DNA of 64,000 bases from Tubiluchus corallicola (taxonomy: Eukaryota; Animalia; Priapulida): positions 558,001-622,000 of the forward strand of contig JAQGDQ010000084.1 of NCBI GenBank assembly GCA_030141605.1, given 5' to 3'. Positions 15,027 through 59,848 of the stretch are shown here, one piece after another. Positions within the stretch are counted from its first letter, which is position 1, and each line of letters opens with the position of its first letter. Below the pieces are notes generated by a model that worked only from the letters and a program-made list of their open reading frames with translations, was not told the DNA's origin and made no database searches. Made by a program: the position numbers and the translations under genes.

Positions 15027-15574
15027 AATTGCATTTCTATGGTGATCACATTTTGGCAGTTTTTTTTAAATTATTTCCTGTCAATTTTTTTGATGAATGT
15101 CTAATAATTTAAAGTAGAAGAAAAGTGATTTTTGGTTGCCTATCAGCATCAGTTTTTTGTGTTTGTTGCTAGTGGTGTTGCACTAGGTGGAATTGCACTT
15201 GTGTACAGTACACACTGGTTTGGGATTGCGTGTTTTCCTTCGTTAAAATGGCGTTGCACTTTGGAATTTGTCGTCTGGTTTATGCTACGGAATGCGATGT
15301 GCGTATTTGCCCGGCTGAAGAATCTAAATAAAAGAATTTTTATTACTAATGCTTAGTGAACGTTACGTTCAGATGACTGTTACATCAGTTTTGTGTGAAC
15401 TGTTATTGAACTTTCTTAGTTTTAACAAGCTGAATCATTCAGGGCAGTAGAAATGCAAAACTTGCATGATGTATCACTGCTTTACCCGTTAACTTTTATG
15501 TTGGAATATCCAGTTTCACTGAGCCATGAGAGAAGGAGATTTAGCTGAGCTGTCATGTACAGTGTGGGTATTTG

Positions 15575-15628
15575 GTTGAAAAGTTAAGCAATGCCCGATC
15601 TAGTTAGTAAATGGATGGGAAAACCTTC
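15575..15628 (+). mobile_element. Decayed 5S rRNA-derived fragment
   Basis: AAGTTAAGCAATGCCCGATCTAGTTAGTAAATGGATGGGAAAACC resembles the 5S core AAGTTAAGC...GGTTAGTACTTGGATGGGAGACC. Confidence 0.5.
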
Positions 15629-15944
15629 TAGGTTTCATCTCTCTTGCGGACTGTGCTTGTACTAAGTTCAATATATCACTTCACTGGTCGTAAATTCCTG
15701 GTTTCCTTTCTTAATGAACTGGTTTCTATTACTATTAGTAAAATCTGCATTAAAAATATGTTGCTGTCGAGATGCTAGTTGCCAGATTACCGGATGCGTA
15801 AAAAATAATATCAACTTTTGTAAGGGGAAGAAAAAAGAATATTTCAGAGTACTTCCCAAAAAACTTTCCATGCGTAGTTATATTATTTAGCCATACGCTT
15901 ATCTGTTTGAAAGACTTCTGTAATTGGAAAAGATTAGTAATTTA

Positions 15945-16310
15945 AAATGTTCATGCTAGTTGGTGATAAGTCACTAACTCGCCTTCCCAGTGTGCATCAC
16001 TGTTTCACCGAAAAACGTATTGCATTGACAGCATAAAGTAATTTATGCTTTTGCTTCTTAGTGACGTGTGCGCTACAAAAAAGTTGCTCTGATTATTTTT
16101 TCAAACTTTATGCAATGTTATCTAAACTTGTTCCAAACAACTTATTGTTAAAATGGCTGCATCTAACGGTCATCGCGGGAAGTTAAATTTACAAGTTTTA
16201 TAGAGCATTACTGCTAATACAGCCCTGCATGCAATAAGATGGCATGTAAGTGATACAAAATATCAAGACGATTTTTCTAGCTTCACGTAAGAATAGTGTG
16301 TTTTTGTACT
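15945..16310 (-). mobile_element. TTAA MITE family C, partial copy
   Basis: Shares sequence with 24.5-24.9 kb and is the reverse complement of 52.85-53.2 kb and 57.85-58.2 kb. Confidence 0.75.
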
Positions 16311-16436
16311 GCTGACCCAAGCCCTGTACATGGTAAGACAGCATATAAGTGATATGAAACATCAAGAATAATTTTCTAGGCTTGGTTTTATTTCAGTAGA
16401 TATCTAATTTCTAACTGAAATTGTTATCAACCGCAG

Positions 16437-17036
16437 GTGGAGACTCAGGATGGCCGGTCAGCCGACGCCCGAGAACAGGAACGTGTCCAAAAATGGATTG
16501 ACAGTCAGAACTTCATGAACAGAAAAATGGAAATGGACAAGACAATGTCGAGTCCCAAAACTTCGAAGCAGCAGCCCCCAATTGAGGAGGAAACCATTGT
16601 AGTCGAGCACGTGTCTAATAAACGTGGCTTGCAGGCGACCGGGACGGATTTGAATAAACAGTTAGAAGCTGTCGAAAAGAAACTTACCTTGCCAAAGTCG
16701 TTACCACCTGTCAGTGTGACCGTGGATCTTAAACCGCATCCGAAAAGCGACAAGAACTTAAAACCGCTATTTGTAAATACTTCTGATAGGGAAGAATCTC
16801 CGTCGTGGAACGTTTCTCAGACCGTGAAGCTTAGCCCGAAAGCGGGGGCGTCGCCGGTAAAGAGTGCTCCCTCACCGACCGGTTACCGGACGAAGTCATT
16901 ACCGTCCGAGCCCGTGAGGCCAATAGAGGTAACTGTTTCGCTGAGGCCACCGCCGAATGCTGCATCGAAGACAGACTGGAAAAAACCTCAACAACTTAAA
17001 GAGTTTACGTTGTCGAAGGACGAGCTGGAACCGAAG
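16437..17036 (+). CDS. LMO7: Large internal exon (VETQDGR...DELEPK), Pro/Ser/Lys-rich, phase 0 to 0
   Basis: ccgcAG acceptor and AAG|GTGATA donor; GC-richer 600-nt open frame. Confidence 0.9.
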
Positions 17037-17375
17037 GTGATAAAAAATGTTGCATTTTCTTCAAAGTTTCGTTTTGTGAAATGAGTTTTATTTCATGTAA
17101 GGTGCTGTCAACAAATGAGGAAAATATTTGTTCACAATACTTGTCAAATCGAGCATGAATTAGAATATTTTTTATTAACGACAGTGACGGTTTGGTGATA
17201 ATCACAATTTTGGACAAGTTTCTTTTTCGTGGGAATTTATCAAGTATCGTAGCCGAAACTTTCGGAAGCATTCCCCCCCCTGAGGTTTTAGTTTAATTTA
17301 TTCAGCTTACCTTTTTTCTTCCAGATGTTAAAAGTTGTTTAAAAATTTTGGCTAAAATAGTTCAAATAAAGCGTA

Positions 17376-17492
17376 AATATCGTTTATTACACCATTTCTA
17401 ATATTGTTTATTACACCATCTCTAATATTGTTGATTACACCATTTCTAATATCGTTTATTACATCATTTCTAATATCGTTTATTACACCATT
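17376..17492. repeat. 24-bp tandem repeat, ~5 copies
   Basis: Unit AATATCGTTTATTACACCATTTCT. Confidence 0.85.
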
Positions 17493-18002
17493 ATTAAACT
17501 TGTTGCACCATTTCTGGCGTGTTTTTATGGCAATGCGGTATATCTTCAGCTGACGATTGTGAAGCTTTATGGTCTCCAGGCACAATCAACCAAAATATCA
17601 AATCATAATTTGAATAAAATCAAGTTTAATTTTACAATTTATAGAATATAGGCAACAAAAATATTTACCAAAAAAAATTGTCAATTTTTTTAAACTTCAT
17701 GATCTTTTGCTGTAAACATTGTTCTGCTTTTTTTGCTAAGAATTTTCGCCTAGCTACTTCGGTCAAGTTTGTATCAGACCAAATAAAAGCAAAAACAAAG
17801 TATTTTATTTATCTAAGAATTTCTTTTCAGCTTTGATGGCAGTTGGTTTTGAAAGAAATGATTTCCGTTCGGTTTTCATTTCAGTGTCGGTTTCCTATGT
17901 TTCATAAATTTAGGTTTCTGTTTCGGTCACATCCCTGATTAAAGGTTCATTTACAAGTTGTTTATTGTTTGTTATTTACAAGTTGATTACTTTTTTGTAC
18001 AG

Positions 18003-18141
18003 GCTAAAGACAGCAATACTTCCTACGTGGAGAAGCTGATCTCTATCACCCAGCTACCAAATTACGAGCGAGGATTTGGATTTTCCATAAAGGGAGGACG
18101 GGAATTTGATCTTCCCATTGTTGTAGACAGCATTATGCCAG
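18003..18141 (+). CDS. LMO7: PDZ domain, N-terminal half (RGFGFSIKGGREFDLPIVVDSIMP), phase 0 to 1
   Basis: GLGF-type loop; tttgtacAG acceptor and G|GTGAGT donor. Confidence 0.95.
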
Positions 18142-18585
18142 GTGAGTGGATGTTCGTATTTACGACAGACTAATCTGCTTCCAGTAATTGTCATGATTAT
18201 TTGTAAAAACCTGATCCGTTTAGATGCAATTAGATTGTTAAATGCGTTTGCTGATGCGGAATGATTAGTGAGTTCTGAGATTTTTAATAAGCATGAAATA
18301 TCCTTAGCGAATCTCTTGCAAGAATTCCTTTTGATCACCTTTGAGATTACCACCTTTTTTGATTACCACTTTCCCTAAAATAGACGCATGGTAAAACGGG
18401 TGTGCTATCATGTTGATTAGCCATTACACCTTGTCTTTTGTGCTAGTCTTTTTCCTACACCCCCCATAATTCATCTTCTGACTTCTTCTCACTTATACTG
18501 CTCTCCAATTACGTTATTAGTAGGTAATTATTTTTTACTTTTACCCTGTAAAATGTGTATTTTAAGGAGATAAATAAAAATTTTC

Positions 18586-19190
18586 TGTGTCTTGTCTATG
18601 TCTGTGTCTTGTCTATGTCTGTGTCTTGTCTATGTCTGTGTCTTGTCTATGCCTATGTCTGTGTCTTGTCTATGTCTTTGTCTTGTCTGTGTCTTGTCTA
18701 TGTCTGTGGCTTGTCTATGTCTGTGTCTTGTCTATGTCTGTGTCTTGTCTATGTCTGTTTCTTGCCTATGTCTATGTCTGTGTCTTGTCTATGTCTATGT
18801 CTGTGCCTTGTCTATGTCTGTGTCTTGTCTATGTCTGTGCCTTGTCTATGTCTTGTCTGTGTTTTGCCTATGTCTGTGTCTTGTCTATGTCTGTGCCTGT
18901 GTCTTGTCTCTGTCTGTGCCTGTGTCTGTGTTTGTGTCTTGTCTATGTCTGTGCCTGTGTCTATGTCTTGTATCTGTCTGTGCCTGTGTCTATGTCTGTG
19001 CCTGTGTCTGTGCCTGTGTCTGTGTTTGTGTCTTGTATATGTCTGTGCCTGTGTCTATATCTGTGTTTGTGTCTTGTCTATGTCTGTGCCTGTGTCTATC
19101 TCTGTGTTTGTGTCTTGTCTATGTCTGTGTTTGTGTCTTGTCTATGTCTGTGCCTGTGTTTGTGTCTTGTCTATGTCTATGTATATGTCA
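18586..19190. repeat. Degenerate TGTCTA/TGTCTG/TGTCT hexamer-based satellite
   Basis: Read directly; it gives the Cys/Leu/Val pseudo-ORFs in three frames. Confidence 0.95.
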
Positions 19191-20252
19191 TGCTAATGAA
19201 TTGATACATGGTCAATTGTCGTTTTAAGTTTTTCAAGCATTGGATCTAACAATTTGGTAAGTTTTACTGAGTTTTATTTCGAATTTTAAGTGTCAAAAAA
19301 GTTTCAGCAAATCAGGCAAATTTTAGCTATTTCTGTAGAGAAGCTATGTTGCATTTTTTTGAAAGTTTGAGCAAAATCAGATTAGATGTAACACTGTTTT
19401 ATGGAAAAAATAATGTAGTGGTACAAAAATCGAATTAAAAAACTGGTACAAGGATAACCGGACCCGGATGTACTATTTACTTTCTGGTAACTGTAGCTTC
19501 CTGTAGTTTCATCATGACAGGTTTTCCTCTTTGACAGGTGTTAGTATTACTCACAGTGAAGTAATTAATTAACTCGGGGTGAAACAGCTACTTAGCTACA
19601 CTGTTTGGTGTAATTAGTCTGTGTGGAAAAATAGTCTCATACAGACTAATTTTAATGTACACTTCTTGCGTCTTTTCCGGTATTTAATTAGTCTGCGATT
19701 TCCAAAATGGTCTGTATTGTGCTGTGCAGCCCAGATTTGGAACACAAGAAACAGTAGACTGTGCAGACTGGGTGCTGATTTTGTGTCCGCCGTTGTTGCT
19801 TAGCAAGCAAGACAAATGCGCCGTGACTTTTGCCAGTAAGGAAGCAATGTTATGCAATAGATGCAGGCGGCAAAAGGAATATAACTCAATTGTACCCAGT
19901 GTTGCAGGAAATCATAAAGAGTTCTATAGCAAACCGGTTGATGAAGAAACCTCTAGCTCTGAGTCTGCCGTAGAAGATTCTGATAGAAAAGCAAAAGATT
20001 GTTCCTGTTGTTCATTGAAAGTAAACTTCATATTGGAATGAAAAGATCAGACGGAATTAGTCTGTGTGAAAAATTACTCTAACACAGACTAATTTTGATA
20101 GTGCATGTTGAAAAGTTAATAAAATTACCATTGTGTCTTAATTTCGAAATTAAATCTCAATGTTAATTAAACTCAGAGTTTTAATTAATTATTACCTGCT
20201 CAGTCTGTACTGCAGTTCTCTGATGCTTGTGGCATTTTCCCTATTATTTTAG

Positions 20253-20414
20253 ACAGTGCAGCCGGAGGATCGGGACTTTTAGTAGGAGATGAAATTCTTG
20301 CCATAAACGGTGAAGACGTCGGATCTCGTCCAAAGAACGCTGTATCTTTTGCAATACGACAAGCTGTTTTTACCGGTCAGATCGAACTAAAGATTCGCAG
20401 ATATCCTTTGCCAA
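20253..20414 (+). CDS. LMO7: PDZ domain, C-terminal half (DSAAGGSGLLVGDEILAINGEDV...IELKIRR), phase 1 to 1
   Basis: Classic PDZ 'GL.VGDEIL.ING' motif; ttttAG acceptor and GTAAGT donor. Confidence 0.95.
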
Positions 20415-21204
20415 GTAAGTTTTTAATTGGGAATTATTTCTTGCAATTTGTCACATTTAAAATGTTTAATACTTGCTCTTGCGTTACATTATGTAAGATG
20501 GGGTGAGAGGGTTGGGCTTTTTAACTAACCGTTTAAATGTTATTAATTGCGGTCGGTTTAACCGTTTACGATGATGTCATACATTCATTTATTCATTCCT
20601 TGTCTGAGTAAGCAGTGGGGTTCAAATCTAGCATGTGCCAGCGACAATGTCCAAGATGGCAGCATCCTCGTAATGCGAGTGAAAAACCTTTTGCAATTTA
20701 CCATTTAGATGCTTCTTAGACAACCAGATTAATTGAAACAATGTTGTAAATAGTACAATTTTATGCAAGCGGGACATTGCTAACTGTGTACGCCAATTCA
20801 GAAAACATACAAGGTTTCATTAATACGGATACGTAGAAAACTTGACTAAGTAACGGTTAAACAGTTAGCGGTGTGTTAAAAGTTTAAATGGTTGACCGTC
20901 TCACCCTTCATGTAAGGTAAAGTTAATTTTATTTTTTGAAAATATGTCATTTCGGCAATTTAAAAAAGAGATGTTGTTGGAAAAGCTGAATTTTTAAATC
21001 AATAAAACATACTAACTACGATTACTTGAATGAAATTTTTTGCTCCATTTTGGAAAAAAATCTAACAAATAAACTAATAATTTTGCTAAGAAATTCTACT
21101 TATAGTCGTCGTAAACATCAACGTAGCCGTGGTAAGGTGCTTAGGTTTCCTGATACTAAACATGAACTTGAGGTAGAATTCAGAGCATTGCCTTATACTT
21201 CGGT

Positions 21205-21490
21205 ATGAACTTCTGAAACAAATTTAAGGAGTTTATTAACTAATTTCTTTACTGTTTTATATTTTCAATGACAAATTTGATTTTGTTATGGCTTATATGA
21301 TTCATTATGAACTTCTGAAACAAGTTTAAAGAGTTTATTAACTAATTTCTTTACTGTTTCACATTTTCAATGACAAATCTTACTTTATCATGGCTTATAT
21401 GCTTAATTATGAACTACAGAACCAAATTTAAAGAGTTTATTAACTAATTTCTTTACTGTTTTACATTTTCAATGATAAATCAGCCTTTGT
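21205..21490. repeat. ~102-bp tandem repeat, ~3 copies
   Basis: ATGAACTTCTGAAACAAATTTAA.GAGTTTATTAACTAATTTCTTTACTG... repeated. Confidence 0.85.
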
Positions 21491-21570
21491 TATTGGCTTC
21501 ATTTTGCTGAAAATAGATTCTTTGCTAATCAATGCTGCTGCTTCTTTTTAACGTTCTTTTCCGCTTTTAG

Positions 21571-21597
21571 CACAAAGAGAGTCTGCCGACACTGAAG
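21571..21597 (+). CDS. LMO7: 27-nt microexon (TQRESADTE), phase 1 to 1
   Basis: Long pyrimidine tract ending ttttAG; AAG|GTGATT donor; frame-preserving. Confidence 0.65.
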
Positions 21598-21707
21598 GTG
21601 ATTTGTAGTGCTTTCCGTTACAGCTAATTCTGCCATCTAGAAAACATCGTGCATTGCATAATCTGGCAAAGCTTCTCAATCCATCTTCCAGATTATGCAC
21701 TCGTAGA

Positions 21708-22120
21708 TGGGGGCTATTAACCAGTAGGCTAACTAGACTATAGCCTAGGGCAACAAAGTTTGAGGGGCATCACACTTTAGAAAAAATTCTACGAAAGTGT
21801 GTGTACTTTCATATTCAAGTAAAGTGCGCATTTTATAACACACCACAGGCAGTTACTGAGAGCAGCTTTCATATAAGAGCCACATAATGAACAGGTGCAA
21901 GGTATTACACAACAAGCAGTTGAGCAGCTTTCGTGAATATAACAGCTATGCGAATACATGTAATTAATATTTGCCACTTAGAAATTAGGTTTAATAGTGT
22001 CTAATACACCACAAGTAATTGTTTATTCTGCTCATTACATAAACAACCATCAATTCACAATGGAGATGGGCAGGACAGAACTATCAACCTAGGGTGCCAA
22101 AAAGTTTTGAGACGTCCCTG
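21708..22120. mobile_element. Decayed hAT-like MITE
   Basis: Ends in ...GTCCCTG; near-perfect 8-bp TSD CTCGTAGA / CTCGTATA. Confidence 0.5.
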
Positions 22121-22684
22121 CTCGTATATGCATGCATGTTTTTTTATGGCAGAATTAGCCTTGTTTTAAAGTAATGCTTTGTTTACTAACTCTGTGTTGT
22201 CAGATAGCTTGTTCTACTAACAAATGCCTAATGACGTTGTTTTTCATTTTTACTTTTTCCAGTGGAAAACTGACCACATAGTTTAACAGCATGATACCTG
22301 TGCACTATTCTCACCTGTACACAAAGAACGAATTGAGTTAACAGTGTGGTGTCTAGACCTATGTAAAGTGTACACACAAAGAAAGCATTAAGTTAAATTG
22401 CTTACTGTGCACCGTATCTGTTTGGCACAAAGAGCACGTCGGAATGCTTCTGTAACCGTTTAAACATCCGTGAAAATTTCAGCTGGTCTTAAGCTCCGTG
22501 TATCATTCGGTTTAATCTTTCTGTGAAAGATTATGTCTTTACTGTTGTTGTTGTACATTGCATGCCTTCGATAAACCGTTATGTGCTGACCCATTCACCC
22601 CCCCTCCCCCACTTCTAATTATTTGAAATATAAATACCATAGAGAAAGATTAGATTTTTAATTAGAATTTAATGTTTTCTGCAG

Positions 22685-22711
22685 AGCTGAGAGCGAATAT
22701 AAACCGGTTGG
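22685..22711 (+). CDS. LMO7: 27-nt microexon (ELRANINRL in phase 1; also open as AESEYKPVG in phase 2)
   Basis: ttttctgcAG acceptor and G|GTAAGA donor. Confidence 0.65.
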
Positions 22712-22904
22712 GTAAGAATTTTACACAAGTTTCAGCATCACAGTGCATCTTGTATTATTACTTTCACTATTAATGCATATCCTACGCATTGAATTCACAG
22801 AATCAGTCTCGTCTTTATTTGGGATTTTCTCTCCGTCTTGAGCCGATGGATAAAAAGGAATCTTCGATTTGTTGGGATTTCAAACTTTTCAGCATTTGGA
22901 GAGG

Positions 22905-23422
22905 TTAAAGGAAAGGTCAAGCCTTTTGGGAAGTTAGGGTTATTTTATGTTCGGGCAAAATTTTAGAAGGATTTAGTAATAAAAGTGTGATAAGTGTTTT
23001 GTATGATTACTAAAGTCGCAATTATTTCACGCTTAAGCGCTACATTTTGAGTGACCATTTGACATCGTTCATTGGCTGAACAAAAGCAGTGCAATATTGA
23101 GTTTAGTTTTTATAAAACATTAGACATTTAATTTTGTGATATTTTTGCGTGAACATTGAGGAAGTTGCAGAAGTTCAAATTAGTTTAGGCAGCACAAGCT
23201 TACGAAATCCATGAAACGCTTACGAAAAGTCACGAAGTCTCCCAGTTACATCATGATTGTCAAGTGAATGGCGGCGACCACCACGTCTGAAAATTTCTAT
23301 TCAGAGGTAGTTTATTTTAGATTTATGCTTTATAGGCAGTTCTTTGCAAATTTCTTTGTTAAATTTTTCAAAATAAAAGTAAAATAAACCCAACATGCTA
23401 AATGACTTGTCCTTTCCTTTAA
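22905..23422. mobile_element. TTAA MITE family B (Kolobok/T2-like)
   Basis: TTAAAGGAAAGGTCAAG ... CTTGTCCTTTCCTTTAA; inverted copy at 54315-54683. Confidence 0.85.
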
Positions 23423-24260
23423 TTAATAACAAATTACGTGGTTTTTTGTCAATGAAGAATTTTTTAGCCTTTGCATATATCGCTTGTATTTTGTAAATCT
23501 CTGACACTCTTGGGTACCGTTGTCTGGTTTCAAAGCTGCTGTTTCCAAACACTGAATTTGTTTTGCAACATTTGCTACGCATGCGCACGATTACTGCTGC
23601 TAATTGAGAATGAACACTTGGTAAACGATTATACTAGAGGGACTCAATGACTGCAGCTTGCATGAAGTGTCTCACTGAACTTTGACACAACTGTTTTTAG
23701 ATCACTATAGTATAGATCACTATACATTAACTATTTGGCATTGCATGCGTTTAAGAGTAAGGTTTGACAACAATATTGCCAAATGTCTGAAGGGCGAAAA
23801 GGGGAGTTTTAAGGTAGGGAGTTGCATACAAAATTGTATTACTTTACATTTTCTGAAAACAATGTTGTCCGACCGGTCTACAACTTTACATCATGTAGGA
23901 AGCTTTATGTCAATTCATTAGATTTATTTCGCAATAAATATATATATATATATATATATGCATTACATGTGCATCGATAATCAGTTTCTGTTAATACATA
24001 ATTAGGATACAATTCATGAATTCTGCGCTAGAGACCTAAGAAGCTAGCTTATGCTAGGCCACTAGAATTAGTTACGAGAAAAATTACAACATATTGTTAA
24101 TGGTTAGTGTGAGGTACAATGAGCGTTAGTAGTATTAAATTTTCATAATTACGATGTAAACTGATGGTCGGTACAGAGAAATGATAAATGCTTTAACACA
24201 TTCGCTAAGTATTTGTGGAGGGAGGCAACATGCTGTACTAAGCTTTACATGTTCCTATAG

Positions 24261-24392
24261 TGCAAGACTTAAGCAAAAATTGCAGAGATGTACACCAGGT
24301 CCGCTTCACGACGTCGAACCCTCTGATACGAGTGCTGACTCAACTCGCGATGCGGTGACCAACAAACTCAGTTCCATGTAACTTATAATAAA
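24261..24392 (+). CDS. Candidate alternative terminal exon after the PDZ domain, with AATAAA
   Basis: Branch-like TACTAAG and ttcctatAG acceptor; GC-richer exon-like composition; stops at 24356 (phase-1 entry) or 24379 (phase-2 entry); AATAAA at 24387-24392. Confidence 0.5.
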
Positions 24393-24404
24393 TAGTTTTC
24401 ATGA

Positions 24405-24909
24405 AAATCTACTGCTAGTCATATTAGTAAGGGAAAACGGAATTTTGAGTACATCCAAAAGTTCCATTACTCTCACCTGTTTGAAAGACTTATGTAACTG
24501 AATAAGAATTTTTTTAGTTATTCAAATATTCACAGCAACTGGTAAAACGTCACTGGTTCGCCTTCCCAGTGTGCACCACTGGCACACTAAAAAAACACAT
24601 TATTGATCTTATAGACAATGTAAAATAATTTAAACTTTTGCGTACTTAGTGAGGTGTGCGTTACCAATGCTCTGATTATTTTTTCAAACTTTATACAGTT
24701 ATCTAAACTTGTTCCAAACAACTTCTTTCAAATGACTTCCCATTAAAATAGGTGCACCTAGAAGTCATCGCGGGAGATTAAATTTACAAGTTTTATACAG
24801 CGTTACTGCTAGTACAGCCCTACATGCAGTAAGACTGCACGTAAGTGATACAAAATATCAAGACGATTTTCCTAGCTTGATGTAAGAATAGTGATTTTTT
24901 GTACTTTAA
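24405..24909 (-). mobile_element. TTAA MITE family C
   Basis: Ends TGTACTTTAA; reverse complement of the 52849-53526 family. Confidence 0.75.
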
Positions 24910-24959
24910 ATGTACGGATCTTAAATTCGCCTAATCATTGAAGCGTCAAATATTCGAAA

Positions 24960-25646
24960 TTATTCATGATTCCGTGTTTCTACCCGGTATTTCCACCTGT
25001 GCTCCGTTTCGTCAGGTAAATCCGATCTACTGTGTAAGACCTTTAAACTAAACCGCAAAGGATTGTCGATATTTTTCTAAGTCTATCGTTTCATTATCTA
25101 TCGTGTCACCAAAAATAACCCGCCCCACGCTTTTCTATTGCAAATTCCCATTCAAATCTTTATCTGTGATAACCATCTGCTTCGGCATATTAAGCCGCGT
25201 CCCTGAATGGTTGGTGAATCGCGGCTGACCTCTGCCTAGTTTTATGCAGTTAACCCGTCTCAACAAAACCTGCGCATGATTCTCCCCCCCCCCCCCCCAT
25301 TTGCATTCCTTGCTGGATTAAACTACTTGCATTTAGACGCATCGAAGCGCGGCTCCTGGTGTGGACGTGGAGGAGGACGAGGGGGGCAGATACACCAGTG
25401 TCTAACACCCTAGTTCTTCTTTCTCGTATTTCTAATCGAATAAACGTCATTGCTATAGCAGAGATGTGTATTTTATATTTCATGATTTCTGGGTTTGAAT
25501 TGATTCTCGCATTTGCCGTTTTTCTGGAATGTAAGGTGACGTAGAACTGTCGATTTTACAACCCCCCCTCTCCTTTCTGGACCACAGCGGAGTTTTGCGT
25601 GATCACAGGTGAATCGTCACACGTAAGTTGACCCGAGGGTTGCGGG
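24960..25646 (+). promoter_or_regulatory. Candidate internal promoter / alternative first exon region
   Basis: CpG-richer non-repetitive sequence with a GC box (CCCGCCCC, ~25119), a poly-C tract and a strong downstream donor GTAAGT at 25793. Confidence 0.45.
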
Positions 25647-25790
25647 ATGCTGCTTTGCCAACAGATTAAACTTTCAGAAATTCCAAGGTTGTTCTTATTG
25701 ATTTTCTGCTGCCTGCCTGTGTACGTATGCCTCCAGTGCCTTGAGGAGGAAGCAGATAAGAGTAAAAGTAGTTTCGAATCGGACGAGTAG
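25647..25790 (+). CDS. Small ORF, 47 aa: MLLCQQIKLSEIPRLFLLIFCCLPVYVCLQCLEEEADKSKSSFESDE (putative membrane micropeptide or uORF)
   Basis: ATG with G at -3; a hydrophobic Cys-rich stretch then an acidic tail; stop codon 2 nt before a GTAAGT donor. Confidence 0.45.
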   Translation: MLLCQQIKLSEIPRLFLLIFCCLPVYVCLQCLEEEADKSKSSFESDE

Positions 25791-26014
25791 TTGTAAGTAT
25801 TCGTAATTAAGTTTTCTTTTAAGCTGCTTTTGGTACTAAGCGATGTTACTTACTTTGATGTTTTTATGCAATTATTTATGATGATAGGTTCGTTGTTGTA
25901 ATCCTATCTTGATTTTAATTGTAGGAAAGTGTAATAAAAATAATATACTAAGTTTAGCTGTCTGGTAAAAACTCTCTAATAAACATAGATTATAGATTTT
26001 TTTGTTCATCCGTT

Positions 26015-26494
26015 TAGCACAGTTATACAAGTTATACAAACACAGTACAGCAAAATACAAGTTATACAAACACAGTTCAACAAAATACAAGTTATACAAA
26101 TACAGTACAACAAAATACAAGTTATACAAACACAGTACAACAAAATACAAGTTATACAAACACAGTGCAGCAAAATACAAATTATACAAATACAGTACAA
26201 CAAAATACAAGTTATACAAACACAGTACAACAAAATACAAGTTATACAAACACAGTACAGCAAAATACAAGTTATACAAATACAGTACAACAAAATACAA
26301 GTTATACAAACACAGTACAGCAAAATACAAGTTATACAAATACAGTACAACAAAATACAAGTTATACAAACACAGTGCAGCAAAATACAAGTTATACAAA
26401 CACAGTACAACAAAATACAAGTTATACAAACACAGTACAACAAAATACAAGTTATACAAATACAGTACAACAAAATACAAGTTACACAAACACA
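26015..26494. repeat. 30-bp minisatellite, ~16 copies
   Basis: Unit CACAGTACAACAAAATACAAGTTATACAAA. Confidence 0.95.
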
Positions 26495-26613
26495 GAATTG
26501 GCAATGCATTGCAGCAGAAGAAATTAACTTATAAGCTTGGCTTCATATACACTTAATTAATGACATAGTCAACACAAAATACGTTAAATGGAGAAAAGCA
26601 AATGGATGCGAGA

Positions 26614-26785
26614 AGATGATGATGATGGTGATGGATGATGATGATGATGATAATGGTGTGTGATAGTGATGATGATGATGATGGCGATGGTGATGATGAC
26701 AATGATGACAGCATTGGTAATATTACTGCTGACGACAATGGTAGTGATGATGCATTAATAATGAATTGATGCTAATAATGATGAC
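26614..26785. repeat. Degenerate (GAT)n microsatellite
   Basis: Read directly. Confidence 0.9.
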
Positions 26786-27099
26786 GGACTCATTTGAACT
26801 AATAAAGCCATTTTTGCAGTCATTAAAATAATATTAAAATATATATGTTAACTATTTGAAAAATATAAAAATGTGTTACTTATTAATTACAGAAATTGAT
26901 TAATTAGGCCCACACGGCTCAAGTATTCCTTTTTTAAATTTATGTTTCCATATATGTGCTCTGATTTAACACTTTCTTTTTGTGCTAAGTTTATACCATA
27001 AAAGGGGCCCAAATGAATGTTAAATGATGTTATATAAAAAGGAAGGTGTGTTTTAATCTGCATAGCAGGGAAAGCATTTTTACACTTGAAAAAAATCAG

Positions 27100-27676
27100 A
27101 TCAAAATTTTACCGGTATCTTAAACTTTCAAATTGAATTTTTACTGAATTAGGTATTTTAAAGATGAAAATTTTTCTAGATTTTAAACTTTCAATTTGAA
27201 TTTTCACTGATTTAGGTATTTTAAAGATTAAAATTTTTTGCAGATTTCAAACTTTCAATTTGAATTTTTACTGAATTAGGTATTTTAAAGATTAAAATGT
27301 TTCCAGATTTTAAACTTTCGATTTGAATTTTTACTGAATTAGGTAGTTTAAAGATTAAAATGTTTCCAGATTTTAAACTTTCGATTTGAATTTTTACTGA
27401 ATTAGGTATTTTAAAGATTAAAATTTTTCCAGATTTGAAACTTTCGATTTGAACTTTCACTGAATTAGGTATTTTAAAGAAAAAATTTTTTCCAGATTTT
27501 AAACTTTCAATTTGAACTTTCACTGAATTTTACCAGATTTTAAACTTTCAATTTGAATTTTCACTGAATTAGGTGTTTTAAAGATCAAAATTTTTGCAGA
27601 TTTGAAACTCTCATTTTGAACTTTCACTGAATTAGGTATTTTAAAGATCAAAGTTTTCGCTGAATTAGGTATTTTA
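27100..27676. repeat. 63-bp minisatellite, ~9 copies
   Basis: Unit ACTGAATTAGGTATTTTAAAGATTAAAATTTTTCCAGATTTTAAACTTTCAATTTGAATTTTT. Confidence 0.95.
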
Positions 27677-28999
27677 ATTATGACTAATTCATTTGTTATT
27701 TTAATAATTCATGGTATGAAATCGAGGCACTGATTATGCTGTGGAATGAGGAAGGTCACGCGACCTAGCTCTTAAAATATTTCCACGATTTTACTCAAAT
27801 TAATTAGTGACGAAAATGCTTGCTATTTAAAATATTTGCTAAAAACTCTTGATGATGAGCAAGATTAGGTAGTTCTGGGAGCACAAGGTTGGTTGAATTT
27901 TCTAAGTGCTGGAGCTTGAACTTGTGTTTTATATTGTGGTTAGAATTTTTTGTAATTTGTTGTATAAAGAAAATTCTGGGTGTTCGTTTTCCCAAATTCC
28001 TCGAAGTTTGAATTCAGCGTATAATCGTTTTAGAACAATGTTCTTCAGTTCTGGTTTCCTTTCTGAGTTTATACCTGTAGACAAATTTTGCGTGGAAGTA
28101 CTAACTCTTTGCTTAATTGTTATTTTCGGAGGAATTTGTTTTGAAGTTTAATGATATGTTGATTTATGCGAAGCTGAACTAAGTATTGGAATGTGAGACG
28201 GATCCATTATTCATTCATTTTTGTCAGTTGCTGGATGTAATAGAATTTAAATGAACAGCCATTATTTAAACAATTATTAGTTGAAATCATAGTGACCAAA
28301 CGATTCCTGATGTGATGTCGTCTCACATAGTTTGTCATTTCACATTAGTTTTTCAAAATTTACTTGCAAATTTTAAGTGTTTGCATAAAGTATATCATAT
28401 AAAACATCTATTTTTGTTTCTGAAACAATAGGTAGGTGGCTGTGTTATGTATTTCGTTGTTTTAACTATGTTGTAACTACGGCCCCCTATTAGGAAATGT
28501 TGAAAACTCAGCTTGTTCGAATAGAAAGTTTCTCGCGTAGACAAATATTAATGAGTTTATAAATGAAAATGTTAACTGGTTATTCCCTTTTTCTGTCTTT
28601 GCCTCACGGCTATTTGTACAAAACGTCATTTCTAAACGTAAAGGCATTTAATCTGTAATCTTTCATCTATAAGACAACTTGTAATGCATGAGGGTTGTCC
28701 AAATGCCATCCTCATATTATATTTGTGTGGCTAACAACGAACTGGCCTAAAGTAAGTTTCAACGTGGGGCAGCGCACTTTTCTGTAGAATTGAATTTTCC
28801 GATAATTTTTGGATAGTTTTAGTTTTACAGTTCTTACATTGGTTGTTTATGTGAATTTTTTCTACAACTTCACTTCAACCTGCATGGGCGCATATTTAAT
28901 GCACGTTGCATGTTGAGAAATTGGACTTGTGAAACTCTCGTGTTTTTTACATCACTTAGTTTTGTTGAAACTCTGAATTTAAACTGATGTTTAAATAAT

Positions 29000-29385
29000 G
29001 ATGCACTTTTCACAGTTTCGTTGTGCGCACACACACTTGCTGTAGGTCAAAGGTTAAGTGTAGCACAGTATCGCATCTTAACTACAACCGTCATGTGACA
29101 TGTGAGTAAAGCAAAACCATCAGTCGCATCAGTTCAGTAAGTTCAATTGTTTTACGTAGGCTTTACTTAATTATGCAGTAGTCTATGCGTAGAATGATTT
29201 GCTAGCCTGATATTGCTTGGGAACAAGAAAAATGAAGTAGGTAAGGTTCTAGCTAGCTGTTAAAACTGTTACTACTACAAGGATTGGAAGGCGTTGTCAA
29301 GTGTACACAAATGCGTTGTCTGGTACACTTAACCTTTGACCTTTTCACGATCACCATCAGTCGCTGGAACTGTGAAAAGGCGTGT
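29000..29385 (-). mobile_element. MITE family E
   Basis: Inverted ends CTTTTCACAGTT ... AACTGTGAAAAG; colinear with 49997-50386. Confidence 0.8.
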
Positions 29386-29845
29386 TGATTGGTTCTTAAT
29401 CATCACATGAGCCTGTAAATTTACACTTTTTGTGCAGATGTTTTGTAGTTAAAATTTTCCAAGTTATTCGATATGAAACAAAATTTTATAATATGCCTTA
29501 TAAATTTACATTATAGTAAATATTTTGATGCAAAATGATTAGCTTGTATTGTGCACTTATTCATGAATTTACAATAATCATTTTTGTAAAGAGTTTGGCT
29601 ACCTCGGTATCAAATTTTGTGAAATAATTTTATCATTTCAAGTTCACGATTTTCTCTTCATGGTAACTTTTCCATTTCTGTAAATTTGCATTCTGTTTCT
29701 TCTTCCATTAATGACCGTTCTGCTGTGAAATGCTTGCTGTTAACGTGTTTCAATTAATTTGTTTCATACATTACAGAAAGCGCAGGTTGTGAGACAGTAT
29801 TTAGTTCTGCTTTTACGTTTTCTTATAGGTTTTGTTTTGTTTCAG

Positions 29846-30609
29846 GGTTGAAGTTGTCGGAACTTGACATTAAGCCGGTAAAGCAAGAGGGATTGATAGC
29901 CGACAGAAGGGACAAATATTTGGTTAGCTTGGAACACGATCAAATCAAAGACGTAGATAAAAAAACGTACGATCCCGAGCAAGAACCTAGAGTGAGCGTT
30001 ACCGCTAAACTGAACAAGTTCGAGCATACGACTGACGATGTGAGCGTTGAGTACAAAGTGTCGCCCACGGAAATGCCGGGTGTCGCCGAGATGCGGAAAC
30101 AGTTCCAACAGCCTAAGCATGAGCAGCATGCCGGCTTCGATAAGTCAAAATTGGCTGATGATCCTAGCCAAGTCTGTGGTGTGAACGAGTTAAAGACGCG
30201 TCTCTTGCAGAAAGAACAACCCGCGAAGAAAGAGTTCAACAAAATCGAACTTGTCGAGATGGAAGAGGATGCTCCGATTCCGGACATTTCGAATCGACGG
30301 AGCGTTTTCGAAAAGCGGGATAGTTCCCCGACTAAGGCCGTCAATGGGCATAGATATCCGGAAAAGATTGACATTTATAGCGAGCCTGTGCAAGATTACT
30401 TTCATAATGAAACTGAGCATGTGCCGACCCGTACATCACAACTGAACACGAACAATAATAACAATAAACAATGGAACATTGCCCCACTGAAAATTTCACC
30501 CCGTGCGTGGGACAAATCACCTCTTAAAATTTCTCCCAGAGATCAGCCTCCGGCATTGGAAAGACCTACAGGACAGCTCTCGCCCAAGAAGCATAACACT
30601 CAATTAAAG
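29846..30609 (+). CDS. LMO7: Large internal exon (GLKLSELDIK...HNTQLK), phase 1 to 0
   Basis: tttcAG acceptor and AAG|GTAAGA donor; 764-nt open frame. Confidence 0.92.
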
Positions 30610-33600
30610 GTAAGAATTTTTGCCATTTTTTTGACAATTTTTGCCTTCCAGTGACAAGTTTATTGTTCATGTGTGACATAAATATCATGAAATCTGGTAA
30701 CATAACATAACATGAGATAACATAATGTATCGTAACGTAAGGTACATAACATAATCTTTTATTCATCTTGCAATACACACACAGTTATAATACAAATACT
30801 AATAATTTGAAAAAACATTTTGTGAAGAAAGGGCACCGAATGATCAATTGGTCATCTAGTCAGCTGCCCTTTGGTCAGTGATGATCATTTTTAAAGGTGC
30901 TGTGCTATGAAAAATAAACAGAAAAACTGATATTACAGCTGCTTATAGCAGAGAATTGCCACATTTATTTCTTTCTTGTAAAGAAGAAACATTTTGGGGT
31001 TACCTATTATGTTTTATCCTTGGTACTAGAGTTTTGTGTTCAAATATCTTAACAAAATGTGCGTGTGTGTATGTATGTAATTGTGAAAGCCAAGCCACAG
31101 TTGTGTGCACAGTGAACAAATGCTAAAAGTAGTGCCATTCACTTTCATCAAGTTAAAAACCGTCACACCTTTGGCAATAGGCTCTGTGTAAAGAAGTTAT
31201 GTGTAACACTGTACATAATGAATGGTACCACCCAATTACTCATCAAAACCAGTACTGTTTAACTGTGAATGAAAATTTCCTCCTGCAGAATGTTCATCAT
31301 AGTTGGCAGCACAGCTTTACTGTGTATATGGAAAAAAATCTGTCAGTGTTTGTCGGAAATCGACAGAATTTGAACAATGCAGGGAGATTAGTTCTATTGC
31401 TAGAGGCGGTATCCATTCACTTCCTGGTGAGAACAGATCGCTAACGTGTGCAAATTATTCCAGGATTAGCACAATTGAGAAAACGTTTATGAAGTTCATT
31501 GCACTTGTTTTACACTAATTACCAAAGAATGTGCAATTACTTACAAGAATGCGAGATTTGTTCATTGCGTAATGGATTTAGGGCCCTTAGTATCCTAGAA
31601 CCCTTAAGCTGGGCCTAGTACAATGCAAGTCCGTCTCCACAGGTGTGCTATTGCATTACTGCTATTTCAATTGTTATGGATGCTTGCCTTACTATAGGGG
31701 TCAAAGACTAATTATGGACTATGCACACATATCTCTCATTCGTGTTGTAGTATTAAAACTAACTGTGTTACTAGCTGTTGTCAATTCAATAATATTTTAA
31801 ATAAATTGCAACCTCGGCAACGTTAACATTGGCCGTGCAATATGCGTAACGTGGTGACATCTGCTGACGAGAAACGAAGCATTATAAACTTATTCCCCTT
31901 TAAATAAGTGATATTTAAATTGTATTTAATGGTAGAAAGAAACCCTATCTTCTTCTTTGTCTTTATTCAATAAAGGAAATGGAGGGCATACCCTAGGCAT
32001 GTTGAAGCACTCAACCCAATCAAGTAGTTTGGGAATTATCAATAGACACAATATTGCCAAGAGACTCCGTTATCATACTTTTGTATAACTAATAGGATGA
32101 TGTACATTGATAATTGTTTCTGGTGTCCTTCTGTACTCTGTGAGCTTTGTATATCTCAATTTTGAGTGTTATCTAATGAATTACTTGTGTTTTTGTATGT
32201 ATGTCTGCTCTCAACTAAATGTATTTGTTACACAGTGGAAAAACTCCGATCAGTAAATATTACTGTAAGTCTATCCACTTAAAATAAACAAAGTTTTTTA
32301 AAAATAAATATATAAAATATATATATATATATATATATATCAATAGACACATTTCCTAATATTTAAAGCGGTCTCCTCTTAGAATGTCGTTTGGCTTGTA
32401 TGGTGCAAATAATTTATCAAAAAAATGTTAAGGCGACCGAAACCGTGTCAACGTACTGCGTAGTTAAAAATCAAGGGCCGCTACACTTGTAAACGTATTT
32501 TAAATTAATTGTTTTTGTGCACGCTACCCCAGTTCCGCTATTACCAGTTAACAGGTACAAAACAATGGTTTTTATGCTGTTTTTTCGTCTGTTGGCACGT
32601 TAGGAATGTGACAATCTTTCTGTGTGTTGATTTTGCTGAGTAACGGAGGATGTAATCTCATTACTGCTGTTGTTATAGACGCTGTGCAGAGCTTGTAATC
32701 AGTTGTGCATATTGACTGTTTTTCTACTGCGCATGTTAAATCAGAGACTGGAAAGTTTTCCAGCGTTAAAATCCGAATTACAGGATGCTAAAATAACTGG
32801 ATGACTCAGAGGTAATTCCAGTAATTCGGGACAGTGACATCGTCATTACATTTCTAGTTTCAGACTAGAACTGACTTGGGACTGGCAGTATCCTTCTCAA
32901 AGCTCATGGGAACGTGCAGGGGTCATTAAGACGGGTAAATAACTGAGTCAGAACTTGAATGAAACGTTGTTGTTTTTGTGTTATGGGACAAGGAAAGGTG
33001 AACATTTATCCCACTTATCCCTGAAATCTAGCCCTGAAATTCACACGGTCTTTGCCCCCTGCTCTGTTTCCGACTACACACCCCCTTTCTGGTGAACATG
33101 GTTAATGAATTACTGCGAGCAGTCATCATTTTTCCTCTTCACAGCTAGACGTTTTTATGACCCATGGCAAGGGAGAGCTCTTCGACCACTTCTGATTGAG
33201 TGGTGGTGCAAGCGACACGTCTAATATAACCGTCTGCACTTGAAAACTCATTCAGCTTCTTCAAATTTCTGGTTTTTCCACCAATCTTTCTGTGCCGTGT
33301 TTATTATAGTTAAGAAAATTCAACGCGCTTTTCATTCTGAGCAGGGATTGGTAATTAGTTTTTACCTAAATTGAGCACTTCTCCTTCAACGTGTGAAGAA
33401 CACAATTAACTGATGCAGTTTGGTAGTTGAATTATGATAGGTTCTAGTGACGTGTCTAGATTGGATGGGACCGGTCCTCCTGAGTTTAATCAGTTGTTTC
33501 TTTCTGAATTAAGTGTAGAAAATAATCGAGAATGGTGTTGTGTCTCCATCTGGCCGTATTTGGACATGTGCAGCAGTGTGGCTTTCGCTAATGAGGTAGG

Positions 33601-33929
33601 GTACAATGGTCAGTTTTTTTTCGTGGACACTTTGAATTAACGTATTGGTTTTATTGAACGTGATTCGTGTTTATTTCAAGTCGGCTTTTTCGATGAAGTT
33701 TAGTTTAGTTTACTCCATTTGCTATAACAAAATAATACATAAATATGGTGAAAATACAAAATATCAGATTAAAAGAAACAAGTAAATAATAAAGTTGATT
33801 AATGAATCATTGGCGCTGTCCAAAAAGAAAACTTCTAAAGGTCAGGCGTTTACCTGAACAGTTAACATAAAAACTCCAAAGGGCTTTCATTGCCGACTGT
33901 AAAAAATAATCTACAATCAACTGCAAATA

Positions 33930-34025
33930 ACAGAGACTGTTGTTACCCCACTTTTACCCTAAATACCACACACCAGGCAGGGCAACAGCAGGTACCATTT
34001 TTTAAAGTCTTTGATACGACCCGAT
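33930..34025 (-). mobile_element. SINE core fragment (Meta-domain-like)
   Basis: CCAGGCAGGGCAACAGCAGGTACCATTTTTTAAAGTCTTTGATACGACCCG resembles, from memory, the MetaSINE central domain. Confidence 0.45.
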
Positions 34026-34079
34026 TCTAAGTATTACTAATAAACAGAAATTTCCAATGTACAATTGCAGATGTACCAC

Positions 34080-34620
34080 TAACATAGGTCAGCTCACATG
34101 AATATCTCAACTGAAATGACCACTGTGATAAGATAAAATCTAAAAGTAATGTCATCTTGGGCTTTCTTCGAAGAACGCTTACTGATTGTTCTGAGGAAGC
34201 AAACCAGATTGCTTATCACACCTTAGTTACGCCTAGGATGGAATATGTTTGCTGTGCTGGGAGTTCTTATACCCAGCGTAAAATTACTAACTTGTAGAAG
34301 GTTGAACACCAAGCAGCTCATTTTGTTAAAAGTGAATATCGCCAAATGGATGGTGTTGTGACATCACTACTTCAGCAACTGGAATGGGACACTTTGAAGA
34401 ACAGACTTGTTGCTCCACCAAGCCAATGTGTTCTGGTGGACTGGTGAATATACCCTTTCCTACGTGCGTTGTACCACCCTCCTTACGCACTAGTTCTTGC
34501 CACTAGTATAAATATGTCCATGTAGTGTCCTCTCCTACACATATTCCCTTCATCCTTGAACAGTCAGTATACAGAACAGGCTTCCAGCCATGGCAATAAA
34601 TGCTAGCTCCATTGAGGCAG
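34080..34620 (+). mobile_element. Decayed CR1-group (L2/Crack/Daphne-like) LINE, ORF2 3' end
   Basis: Translates as AYHTLVTPRMEYVCCAGSSYTQRKITNL*KVEHQAAHFV...VTSLLQQLEWDTLKNR, matching the 'LVRP.LEY...W...LEKVQRRAARFV' region after the RT domain. Confidence 0.8.
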
Positions 34621-41422: not shown

Positions 41423-41689
41423 GTAGGTACATATGTCTGTGTGCGTGCGTGCAAGGGTGCATGCGTGCGTGTGCATGTGTGTTAAGGCTTAAGAGGACAT
41501 CAAATGCAGATACGGTGTGTGGCATATGTACGTGCATATTATAGTCTAACAGCCCATGAAAGTAGGCAGAATGGGCTGTTATGGTGTAAGGTAGAATGTG
41601 CGGCGATTGACGGGCGCTGAGATGCGTGTGGGACGGGTTGCTGCACCACAGGTCATGAACATTTCTTGTTGATTGTCGCATACTCTGGG

Positions 41690-43880: not shown

Positions 43881-44060
43881 ATATACGTATGCATACATCC
43901 TAACTTTCATACGTCTTAATGTGCTGAAACTATCTTGCTTGTTGAGTCTTGCAAGAAGAGATTTAATCGTTTTTGATAATTATAGATTTCATCATAGTAA
44001 AATCAGTTAGTAATGATACTTTTAACACGTAATAAAGTAATTGAATTAAATTATTTGCAG

Positions 44061-59683: not shown

Positions 59684-59848
59684 GTGGCGGTGCAGCCATG
59701 ACCATTGAGAAACTAAATCTAAACTTTCACATAGATTGTTTCCGTTGTTGCGTCTGCAGTATTCCGCTTGGCAACGGCTTGAGAGGTGCCGACGTCAGAG
59801 TCAGACATCACAAATTACATTGCCAAAATTGCTACAGTAATGATGAAG
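59684..59848 (+). CDS. LMO7: LIM domain exon (GGGAAMTIEKLNLNFHIDCFRCCVC...DVRVRHHKLHCQNCYSNDE), phase 1 to 1
   Basis: Completes the zinc ligand spacing; the 'G.GAAM.IE.L.L.FH..CF.C..C...LG....G.DVRVR...LHC..CY' pattern is the LMO7/LIMCH1-type LIM. Confidence 0.97.

What the first reader, a model, noticed from the sequence alone, without database searches (positions are those of the whole stretch)
25647..25798. Hidden 47-aa Cys-rich hydrophobic micropeptide ORF in a putative internal first exon
Seen: an ORF below the 60-aa track cutoff, MLLCQQIKLSEIPRLFLLIFCCLPVYVCLQCLEEEADKSKSSFESDE*. It has an ~18-residue uncharged core with four Cys, an acidic tail and a purine at -3. Its TAG lies 2 nt before a perfect GTAAGT donor, inside a unique CpG-richer intronic island. 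Inference: an alternative first exon encoding a membrane-anchored, possibly palmitoylated microprotein as a uORF. The mRNA would be bicistronic with the LIM-containing half of LMO7, whose first in-frame ATG in the next large exon is at about 30073. I do not recognise this peptide family.
Basis: partly seen in the sequence, partly recalled or inferred. Interest (0 to 1): 0.8.

Follow-up and report, generated by a model that had tools for sequence, protein, structure and literature searches.

The report
Candidate membrane micropeptide inside LMO7 intron
Inside an intron of an invertebrate's cell-junction gene LMO7 lies a 47-codon reading frame with a greasy core and an acidic tail, at the end of what is likely an internal first exon; it may make a small membrane peptide that would also damp production of a short LMO7, but transcription, translation and conservation are all untested.

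Summary
The ORF is real: 25647-25790, 47 aa, G at -3, TAG 2 nt before GTAAGT, and a public run's contig has the same letters. It lies after the PDZ exons of an LMO7-like gene of an unidentified invertebrate, at the 3' edge of the most CpG-rich non-exonic patch of the window, where composition turns intron-like. Hydrophobic short ORFs are common here (14 of 169). The in-frame pairing of core and acidic tail is rarer than local shuffles give, and synonymous codons lean weakly coding (z 2.2, likelihood ratio about 2.7); these tests are largely post hoc. The donor is weak on its exon side. The patch also holds stronger donors upstream of the ATG, three earlier ATGs, an in-frame hydrophobic leader (ATG 25464) and a 21-nt microexon candidate. 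No homologue was found, but no close relative of even the LMO7 exon was found, so conservation is untested. Best reading (0.38): internal first exon with a translated, out-of-frame membrane micropeptide uORF. Main rival (0.27): incidental ORF. Interest is moderate until RNA or orthologues are seen.

The parts
25124..25650 (+). Single-copy GC- and CpG-richer patch; inferred internal promoter and 5' leader
   Evidence: 27 CpG, 47.6% GC; overlaps the top-ranked of 1,110 non-exonic 500-nt windows; single-copy depth. Promoter role inferred.
25647..25790 (+). 47-codon ORF: 14-residue N-region, 18-residue uncharged core with four Cys, 15-residue acidic Ser/Lys-rich tail, TAG
   Evidence: same letters in X1 contig
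25793..25798 (+). Candidate donor GTT|GTAAGT, inferred 3' end of the first exon
   Evidence: weak matrix score 2.1 but sharp composition step
25464..25544 (+). Upstream 26-codon hydrophobic ORF in the same frame; its donor at 25531 would join it in frame to the 29846 exon
   Evidence: no coding-like synonymous signal (z 0.03)
25588..25608 (+). 21-nt phase 1/1 microexon candidate (acceptor 4.8, donor CAG|GTGAAT 4.8); the donor could instead end a shorter first exon without the ORF
25623..25628 (+). Donor CAC|GTAAGT (4.9), 24 nt upstream of the ATG; its use would remove the ORF start
25737..25792 (+). Purine-rich 56 nt after a weak acceptor (0.9); encodes the acidic tail; possible small exon on its own
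25933..25983 (+). Two AATAAA signals (25933, 25978) downstream of the stop
   Evidence: 82 AATAAA in the window, so weak
20253..20414 (+). Second PDZ exon of LMO7 (ends phase 1), upstream boundary of the host intron region
22685..22711 (+). 27-nt phase 1/1 microexon candidate of full-length LMO7
   Evidence: best-scoring of 8 paths against Lingula, 42 vs 33-39; small margin
29846..30609 (+). Next large LMO7 exon (phase 1 acceptor); alternative acceptors at 29777 (phase 1) and 29829 (phase 2); AUG-UGA at 30038; first in-frame ATG 30073
59684..59848 (+). LIM-domain exon reached by a stop-free 673-codon path from ATG 30073

Best explanation
The CpG-richer patch is likely an internal promoter and alternative first exon of an LMO7-like gene ending at 25792, and the 47-codon ORF at its end is likely translated into a small, predicted membrane-attached peptide that lies out of frame with LMO7. 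Shown: the ORF, its frame, the splice-site sequences, the composition step and the downstream path to the LIM domain. Inferred: transcription starts inside the patch, probably after about 25530 if the ORF is to be the first AUG; the exon splices to 29846; the short Cys-rich helix inserts in or lies on a membrane, perhaps held by S-acylation, with the acidic tail exposed. The ORF would act as a long uORF that represses the short PDZ-less, LIM-containing LMO7 (ATG 30073, 229 nt downstream on the spliced RNA). That protein would come from leaky scanning, or from sister transcripts that use the upstream donors 25609 or 25623 and so lack the ORF. Donor choice would then toggle between peptide-making and short-LMO7-making mRNAs.
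For: Patch is single-copy and the most CpG-rich non-exonic stretch. Of four candidate donors only 25793 shows the GC drop and T rise seen at most inferred real donors. In 6 Mb of order-4 intron simulation, 1 of 8,339 ORFs had such an acidic tail, 1 of 8,339 was hydrophobic with GTRAGT within 10 nt, and none had all features. With local dinucleotide shuffles the core is reached in 0.09% in frame (0.26% any frame; 0.6% and 1.5% if only the T-rich 48 nt are shuffled) and the tail in 0.5% (1.6% any frame). The core (KD15 2.81, no stop) exceeds all 33 frames read upstream of 11 inferred real acceptors (max 2.55). The X1 contig has 0 substitutions in 635 nt against 25 in 2,163 nt over five other mostly intronic contigs (very uneven, weak). 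Precedent: short LIM-containing Smash PI is functional in Drosophila (PMC5839775, passages); human LMO7 uses alternative start sites (PMC3208247, passages); uORF-encoded membrane microproteins exist (PMC13303939, abstract).
Against: The amino-acid statistics are post hoc: the ORF was picked for these features from a very large scan. The synonymous test has low power (true exons mean z 0.7, likelihood ratio about 2.7), the +1 frame also scores 1.4-2.0, and in a first version without local-composition control the +1 frame scored higher than the ORF frame (4.6 vs 3.4). Donor 25793 is weaker than all 8 inferred real donors and than 25609 and 25623. Three ATGs precede the ORF in the patch. The core is short, has an internal Pro and is marginal on an approximate insertion scale (+0.1 for 17 aa, +2.2 for 19 aa). 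T-rich non-coding DNA readily encodes membrane-like helices (PMC7005711, abstract); database entries P0008 and P0011 show intron read-ins giving Met-started hydrophobic leaders. uORFs over 30-50 codons are poor for reinitiation and can trigger decay (PMC9786829, passages). Among the LMO7 cluster members listed for molluscs and Lingula, no isoform starts after the PDZ with a hydrophobic leader (two large clusters listed only 15 of 20 and 15 of 176, and most members were judged by length).
Confidence: 0.38

Rival explanations
1. The patch is an internal promoter and 5' UTR for a short LMO7, but the ORF is incidental: a neutral uORF, or a frame straddling a 114-nt intron (25623-25736) and a 56-nt purine-rich UTR exon (25737-25792), where the pyrimidine tract reads as the hydrophobic core and the purine-rich exon as the acidic tail.
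For: A strong donor lies 24 nt before the ATG and a CAG acceptor lies exactly at the core/tail boundary. Hydrophobic ORFs are common. Intron read-ins give similar leaders in P0008 and P0011. It removes the long-uORF problem.
Against: The acceptor scores only 0.9 and the putative intron is 42% GC and 37% T, not intron-like. T is concentrated at codon position 2 (11/16/6). The core exceeds 33 control frames. Weak in-frame synonymous signal.
Confidence: 0.27
2. The real coding first exon starts at ATG 25464 and uses donor 25531: a 22-residue hydrophobic leader is spliced in frame to the 29846 exon, giving a membrane-anchored short LMO7 of at least 771 aa, like small ankyrin 1. The 47-aa ORF would then lie in the intron.
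For: Phase-1 donor matches the phase-1 acceptor and the path to LIM is stop-free. It is the first ATG after the GC-rich core, with G at -3. It is a slightly better membrane span on the approximate scale (-0.5 for 19 aa).
Against: Donor scores 2.5 and is followed by 51% GC, not intron-like sequence. The segment is 46% T, so hydrophobicity is expected. No synonymous signal (z 0.03). One in three donors is in frame by chance.
Confidence: 0.1
3. The patch holds cassette or terminal exons of the full-length transcript: an in-frame 21-nt microexon (25588-25608), or 25588-25622 plus 25737-25792, which would end LMO7 after the PDZ with the acidic tail, or a poison exon.
For: 25588-25608 has the best paired splice scores of three phase 1/1 candidates between the PDZ and 29846 exons. 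Oysters have an 8-residue alternative microexon right after the PDZ. Mollusc and Lingula LMO7 are acidic right after the PDZ. A LIM-less isoform exists in Drosophila (PJ, PMC5839775). AATAAA follows at 25933 and 25978.
Against: Paths through the patch align worse to Lingula than the path that skips it (33-38 vs 42). The peptide's best score to 134 stored LMO7-related proteins (39) is within shuffles (31-44). It does not explain a 500-nt CpG-rich patch.
Confidence: 0.08
4. The patch is a non-transcribed intronic enhancer and ORF and donor are chance.
For: CRE-like and E-box-like words occur (25444, 25537, 25606; motif names recalled). GTAAGT occurs 24 times in the window.
Against: Composition step at the donor and frame-specific features.
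Confidence: 0.08
5. The ORF is a stand-alone nested single-exon micropeptide gene, polyadenylated near 25950-26000, with no splice to LMO7.
For: Two AATAAA 143 and 188 nt after the stop. It avoids the reinitiation and decay problem.
Against: AATAAA is frequent (82 in 64 kb). GTAAGT sits exactly at the composition edge, which this reading leaves to chance.
Confidence: 0.05
6. The ORF is the membrane-anchoring N-terminus of short LMO7, joined in frame through the phase-2 acceptor at 29829 by stop readthrough, a cryptic donor before the TAG, or because TAG is a recent nonsense allele.
For: 25792 joined to 29829 is in frame after the TAG, and that acceptor scores 4.9.
Against: In-frame donors before the stop all score below -1.3. 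No stable structure around the stop (z -0.07). UAG-UUG is not a readthrough context I recall. TAG is also in X1.
Confidence: 0.04

Closest known systems
uORF-encoded membrane microproteins on bicistronic mRNAs: STREMI/AltSLC35A4 (PMC13303939, abstract read; PMC12183330, search listing only)
   Same: Small hydrophobic ORF upstream of and separate from a host ORF; would double as a translational brake.
   Different: STREMI is conserved, detected and on the main transcript. Here the ORF is in an inferred internal first exon, has no known relative and no expression data.
TP53BP1 SEP53BP1 (PMC10193022, abstract read)
   Same: An alternative promoter brings a new 5' leader with a uORF and changes the protein output of a large gene.
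   Different: There the small protein overlaps the main CDS and is made by reinitiation after the uORF; here the candidate peptide is the uORF itself.
Small ankyrin 1 (sAnk1/Ank1.5; PMC11927728, passages read)
   Same: Short isoform of a large cytoskeletal scaffold with a new N-terminal membrane segment (its internal promoter is recalled, not read).
   Different: sAnk1's segment is in frame with the scaffold's C-terminal part. The 47-aa ORF stops before the donor; only the upstream ATG 25464 reading matches.
Drosophila Smallish PI and alternative start sites of human LMO7 (PMC5839775, PMC3208247, passages read)
   Same: Shorter LIM-containing isoforms of the same gene family exist and function.
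   Different: The passages read mention no membrane segment or micropeptide; the human short form there lacks only the calponin-homology part.
De novo transmembrane ORFs from thymine-rich DNA (PMC7005711, abstract read)
   Same: Orphan short ORF whose hydrophobic helix comes from T-rich sequence.
   Different: Described for yeast intergenic DNA; here within an intron, and age cannot be dated without relatives.

Membership tests
LMO7/Smallish (host gene) | PDZ domain upstream and C-terminal LIM domain, similar to LMO7/LIMCH1 orthologues | tested here: met
   Pfam PDZ_6 E 1.5e-6; LIM exon up to 75% identical, 31 hits among 42 candidates; tblastn tiling
uORF-encoded membrane microprotein (STREMI type) | ORF separate from and not in frame with the host ORF | tested here: met
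   joins to 29846 or 29777 are out of frame; stop precedes the donor
uORF-encoded membrane microprotein (STREMI type) | ORF lies on the same mature mRNA as the host ORF | not testable with these tools
   no usable RNA run was served (see Tried and rejected)
uORF-encoded membrane microprotein (STREMI type) | Membrane-spanning helix | tested here: inconclusive
   KD 2.81 over 15 aa, 2.18 over 19 aa, marginal insertion estimate; AlphaFold helix is matched by a control ORF
uORF-encoded membrane microprotein (STREMI type) | Conserved frame and codons across species | tested here: inconclusive
   no hits, but the neighbouring LMO7 exon has none either
uORF-encoded membrane microprotein (STREMI type) | Translation shown by Ribo-seq or proteomics | not testable with these tools
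   only an indirect codon test, z 2.2
sAnk1-type membrane-anchored short isoform | Hydrophobic first exon spliced in frame to the C-terminal part | tested here: not met
   not met for ATG 25647; possible for ATG 25464 by sequence only
CYSTM cysteine-rich membrane module (features recalled) | Pro/Gln/Tyr-rich N-part and C-terminal Cys-rich membrane module matching the Pfam model | tested here: not met
   0 Pfam families at E up to 1; core is central, followed by an acidic tail
SERCA regulins: phospholamban, sarcolipin, sarcolamban (features recalled) | C-terminal single helix with the SERCA-binding motif | tested here: not met
   0 Pfam families, 0 PDB chains at E up to 10; helix is not C-terminal
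S-palmitoylated peptide | Acylated cysteines next to a membrane segment | not testable with these tools
   four Cys in the core are compatible; no predictor or assay available

The most novel reading that the evidence does not exclude
One internal first exon of LMO7 works as a three-way switch by donor choice: donor 25531 makes a membrane-anchored short LMO7, donors 25609/25623 make a cytosolic short LMO7, and donor 25793 makes a new acylated membrane micropeptide that shuts LMO7 translation down and may partner LMO7 at cell junctions or muscle membranes.
Probability: 0.12. Interest if true: 0.72.

Novelty: new member of a known kind. Interest (0 to 1): 0.4.

Why it matters
If the peptide is real it would be an orphan membrane microprotein hidden in a junction and muscle scaffold gene. 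It would show that an internal promoter plus donor choice can trade a truncated scaffold for a separate small protein. Such uORF microproteins are known mainly from mammals and flies (listing), and my searches found none reported for LMO7. If it is incidental, the patch is still a likely unannotated internal promoter for a PDZ-less, LIM-containing LMO7, which is ordinary. One RT-PCR or one related genome would settle most of it.

Tried and rejected
RNA: no RNA holder listed. X1 behaves as DNA. X2 ('RNA?' by guess) laid 20 contigs in 14500-34400, mostly short partial pieces at repeats, and none on 24950-26050. This is no evidence on expression. Homologues of the peptide: no candidate among 25-83 aa proteins; 0 hits among 1.84 billion representatives of any length; no usable Atlas hit, recognition 1747, which says nothing on reality; exact sequence not in the collection; 0 Pfam; 0 PDB; 0 of 597 pattern matches confirmed in metagenome contigs. 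These blanks are uninformative: the 254-aa neighbouring exon also found nothing (0 of 134 candidates, lengths 139-445 only; 0 of 283). No whole genome is held. AlphaFold single-sequence model: one helix, pLDDT 81.9; a control hydrophobic ORF from the same intron gave a helix at 73.8 with a core block of 92, so it does not discriminate; no fold search was run. RNA folding of 25700-25900 and 25450-25792: z -0.07 and 0.62. Rfam: 3 sub-threshold snoRNA hits on a GAT repeat at 26640-26733, rejected. The bacterial promoter scan does not apply to an animal. Donor clustering in the patch is not unusual. The first codon test was confounded by GC. One search had a one-base coordinate slip, corrected. 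A second Atlas look-up of the 96-codon frame 25254-25541 was unavailable, so that frame is unsearched there. Earlier findings: nothing near, by words or by sequence. Supplements of the cited papers were not opened; isoform tables for Smallish or LMO7 there could bear on short-isoform precedent.

Full report
Observation. The ORF at 25647-25790 translates to the 47 residues given. The ATG has G at -3 and C at +4, and the TAG is followed by TT and GTAAGT at 25793. Residues 15-32 are uncharged with four Cys; the last 17 residues hold seven Asp/Glu. One contig of public run X1 spans 25290-25924 with no substitution and one C-run length difference, so the frame and stop are unlikely to be assembly errors; X1 may be the window's own sample. 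Depth there is about 17-20 against hundreds to thousands at flanking repeats. The patch carries the top-ranked CpG counts of 1,110 non-exonic 500-nt windows and is 47.6% GC.

Host gene. A PDZ domain is encoded at 18003-18141 and 20253-20414 and a LIM domain at 59684-59848. The LIM exon finds 31 proteins among 42 candidates, most of the named ones LMO7/LIMCH1-like, the best 75% identical. The pre-LIM block is closest to Lingula and the second PDZ exon to Nymphon, so the animal is an unidentified invertebrate without a close relative in these collections. A 27-nt microexon candidate at 22685-22711 followed directly by the 29846 exon gives the best of eight paths against Lingula (42 vs 33-39), which suggests, by a small margin, that full-length LMO7 skips the patch. 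From ATG 30073 a stop-free path of 673 codons over seven exons reaches the LIM domain; these exons are predicted from splice signals and more may exist.

Anatomy of the patch. It has four ATGs from 25464 on (25464, 25482, 25529, 25647) and several donor-like sites. On a generic hand-set matrix, 25609 and 25623 score 4.8 and 4.9, 25531 scores 2.5 and 25793 scores 2.1; eight inferred real donors score 2.6-9.0. Composition points the other way: only 25793 has purine-rich sequence before it and a drop to 29% GC and 49% T after it, as most inferred real donors do. The 29846 acceptor is phase 1. Joined from 25792 the ORF is out of frame with LMO7, with 229 nt and one AUG-UGA before ATG 30073. Joined to the phase-2 acceptor at 29829 it is in frame but behind the TAG. 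ATG 25464 with donor 25531 gives a 22-residue hydrophobic leader in frame with LMO7. 25588-25608 is a well-flanked in-frame microexon candidate. A weak acceptor at 25737 falls exactly between core and tail, so donor 25623 and this acceptor would excise the ATG and the core.

Is it more than chance? Hydrophobicity alone is not: 14 of 169 ATG ORFs of 35-70 aa reach a 17-residue mean of 2.0, and simulation gives 1.7 per 50 kb at 2.4. The combination is rarer: of 8,339 simulated ORFs one had the acidic tail, one was hydrophobic with a donor within 10 nt, none had all. The core exceeds 33 control frames upstream of 11 inferred acceptors, and its T lies mostly at codon position 2. These features are the ones the ORF was picked for, so the figures overstate the case. 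Synonymous codon choice is more independent. Uncontrolled, it was not frame-specific. Controlled for local composition it gives z 2.23, best of six frames and reached by 1.1% of 935 intron windows, but the +1 frame gives 1.4-2.0 and true exons average only 0.7, for a likelihood ratio near 2.7. The zero substitutions in X1 against 25 in 2,163 nt of five other mostly intronic contigs are weak, because those range from 0 of 456 to 18 of 613.

Outside evidence. No relative of the peptide was found, but the 254-residue neighbouring exon found none either, so conservation is untested rather than absent. Transcription could not be tested. Among LMO7 cluster members listed, molluscs and Lingula show no post-PDZ start with a hydrophobic leader. 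Oysters have an 8-residue alternative microexon right after the PDZ. Nymphon has a predicted 703-aa isoform that starts after the PDZ with its own Cys-containing 24 residues, which may be a prediction artefact. The AlphaFold helix is matched by a control ORF.

Mechanism. The reading I think most likely (0.38) is an internal promoter and first exon ending at 25792, with the ORF translated into a short membrane-attached peptide and acting as a long out-of-frame uORF. Reinitiation works mainly after uORFs under 20-30 codons, and those over 30-50 can trigger decay in mammals (PMC9786829, passages). The short LMO7 would therefore come from leaky scanning or from sister transcripts ending at 25608 or 25622. 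All of this beyond the sequence facts is inferred. The main rival (0.27) keeps the promoter and makes the ORF incidental; T-rich DNA readily encodes such helices (PMC7005711, abstract). Smaller rivals: in-frame leader from 25464 (0.10), cassette or terminal exons (0.08), enhancer (0.08), stand-alone gene (0.05), fusion through 29829 (0.04). The chance that the patch is a transcription start or first exon at all is about 0.75-0.8.

Comparison. It would work like STREMI/AltSLC35A4 (PMC13303939, abstract) and resembles the promoter switch of TP53BP1 (PMC10193022, abstract). It fails the in-frame test for a small-ankyrin-type isoform (PMC11927728, passages), and Pfam and PDB give no match to CYSTM or regulin families (their features are recalled). 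Short LMO7-family isoforms are known (PMC5839775 and PMC3208247, passages), as are unannotated tissue-specific Lmo7 exons (PMC7000147, passages). PMC11267500 and PMC10018040 (passages) added nothing on membrane isoforms. Searches showed no LMO7 micropeptide; the library lacks most subscription papers and I opened no supplements.

Verdict. If real it is a new member of a known kind.

Noticed in passing
window 25464-25544 and donor 25531: Second hydrophobic ATG ORF in the same frame; its phase-1 donor would fuse 22 hydrophobic residues in frame to the LIM-containing half of LMO7 (771-codon path).
   Followed up: yes
window 25588-25608: 21-nt in-frame microexon candidate with strong acceptor and donor; the C-run length difference in run X1 lies in its pyrimidine tract.
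   Followed up: partly
window 22685-22711 (also 21571-21597): 27-nt phase 1/1 microexon candidates after the PDZ; the first resembles the matching Lingula segment.
   Followed up: partly
window 29777, 29829, 29846: Three tandem acceptors in an open frame; 29829 is nearly as strong as 29846 but in another phase, so its use by full-length LMO7 would shift the frame.
   Followed up: partly
P0062 vs P0060 (Ostrea), P0099 vs P0025 (Magallana): An 8-residue alternatively included segment sits right after the PDZ domain in two oyster LMO7 genes.
   Followed up: no
P0126 and P0125 (Nymphon striatum): Predicted 703-aa isoform starting after the PDZ with a unique Cys-containing N-terminus, and a 682-aa isoform ending after the PDZ; may be prediction artefacts.
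   Followed up: no
window 19610-20100: Between the two PDZ exons, a 117-codon stop-free frame (19688-20041) with Cys pairs and an acidic stretch is flanked by two similar ~40-nt hairpin-like repeats; possibly a mobile-element remnant. No Pfam hit.
   Followed up: partly
window 7219-7371: Exon-like open frame with good acceptor and donor, not matched by any LMO7 homologue in tblastn.
   Followed up: no
window 25990-26500; 1136-1630; 41620-43900; 48000-49300: Tandem arrays of 30, about 6/18 (telomere-like CCCTAA), 37 and 46 nt; they explain the long repetitive ORFs.
   Followed up: no
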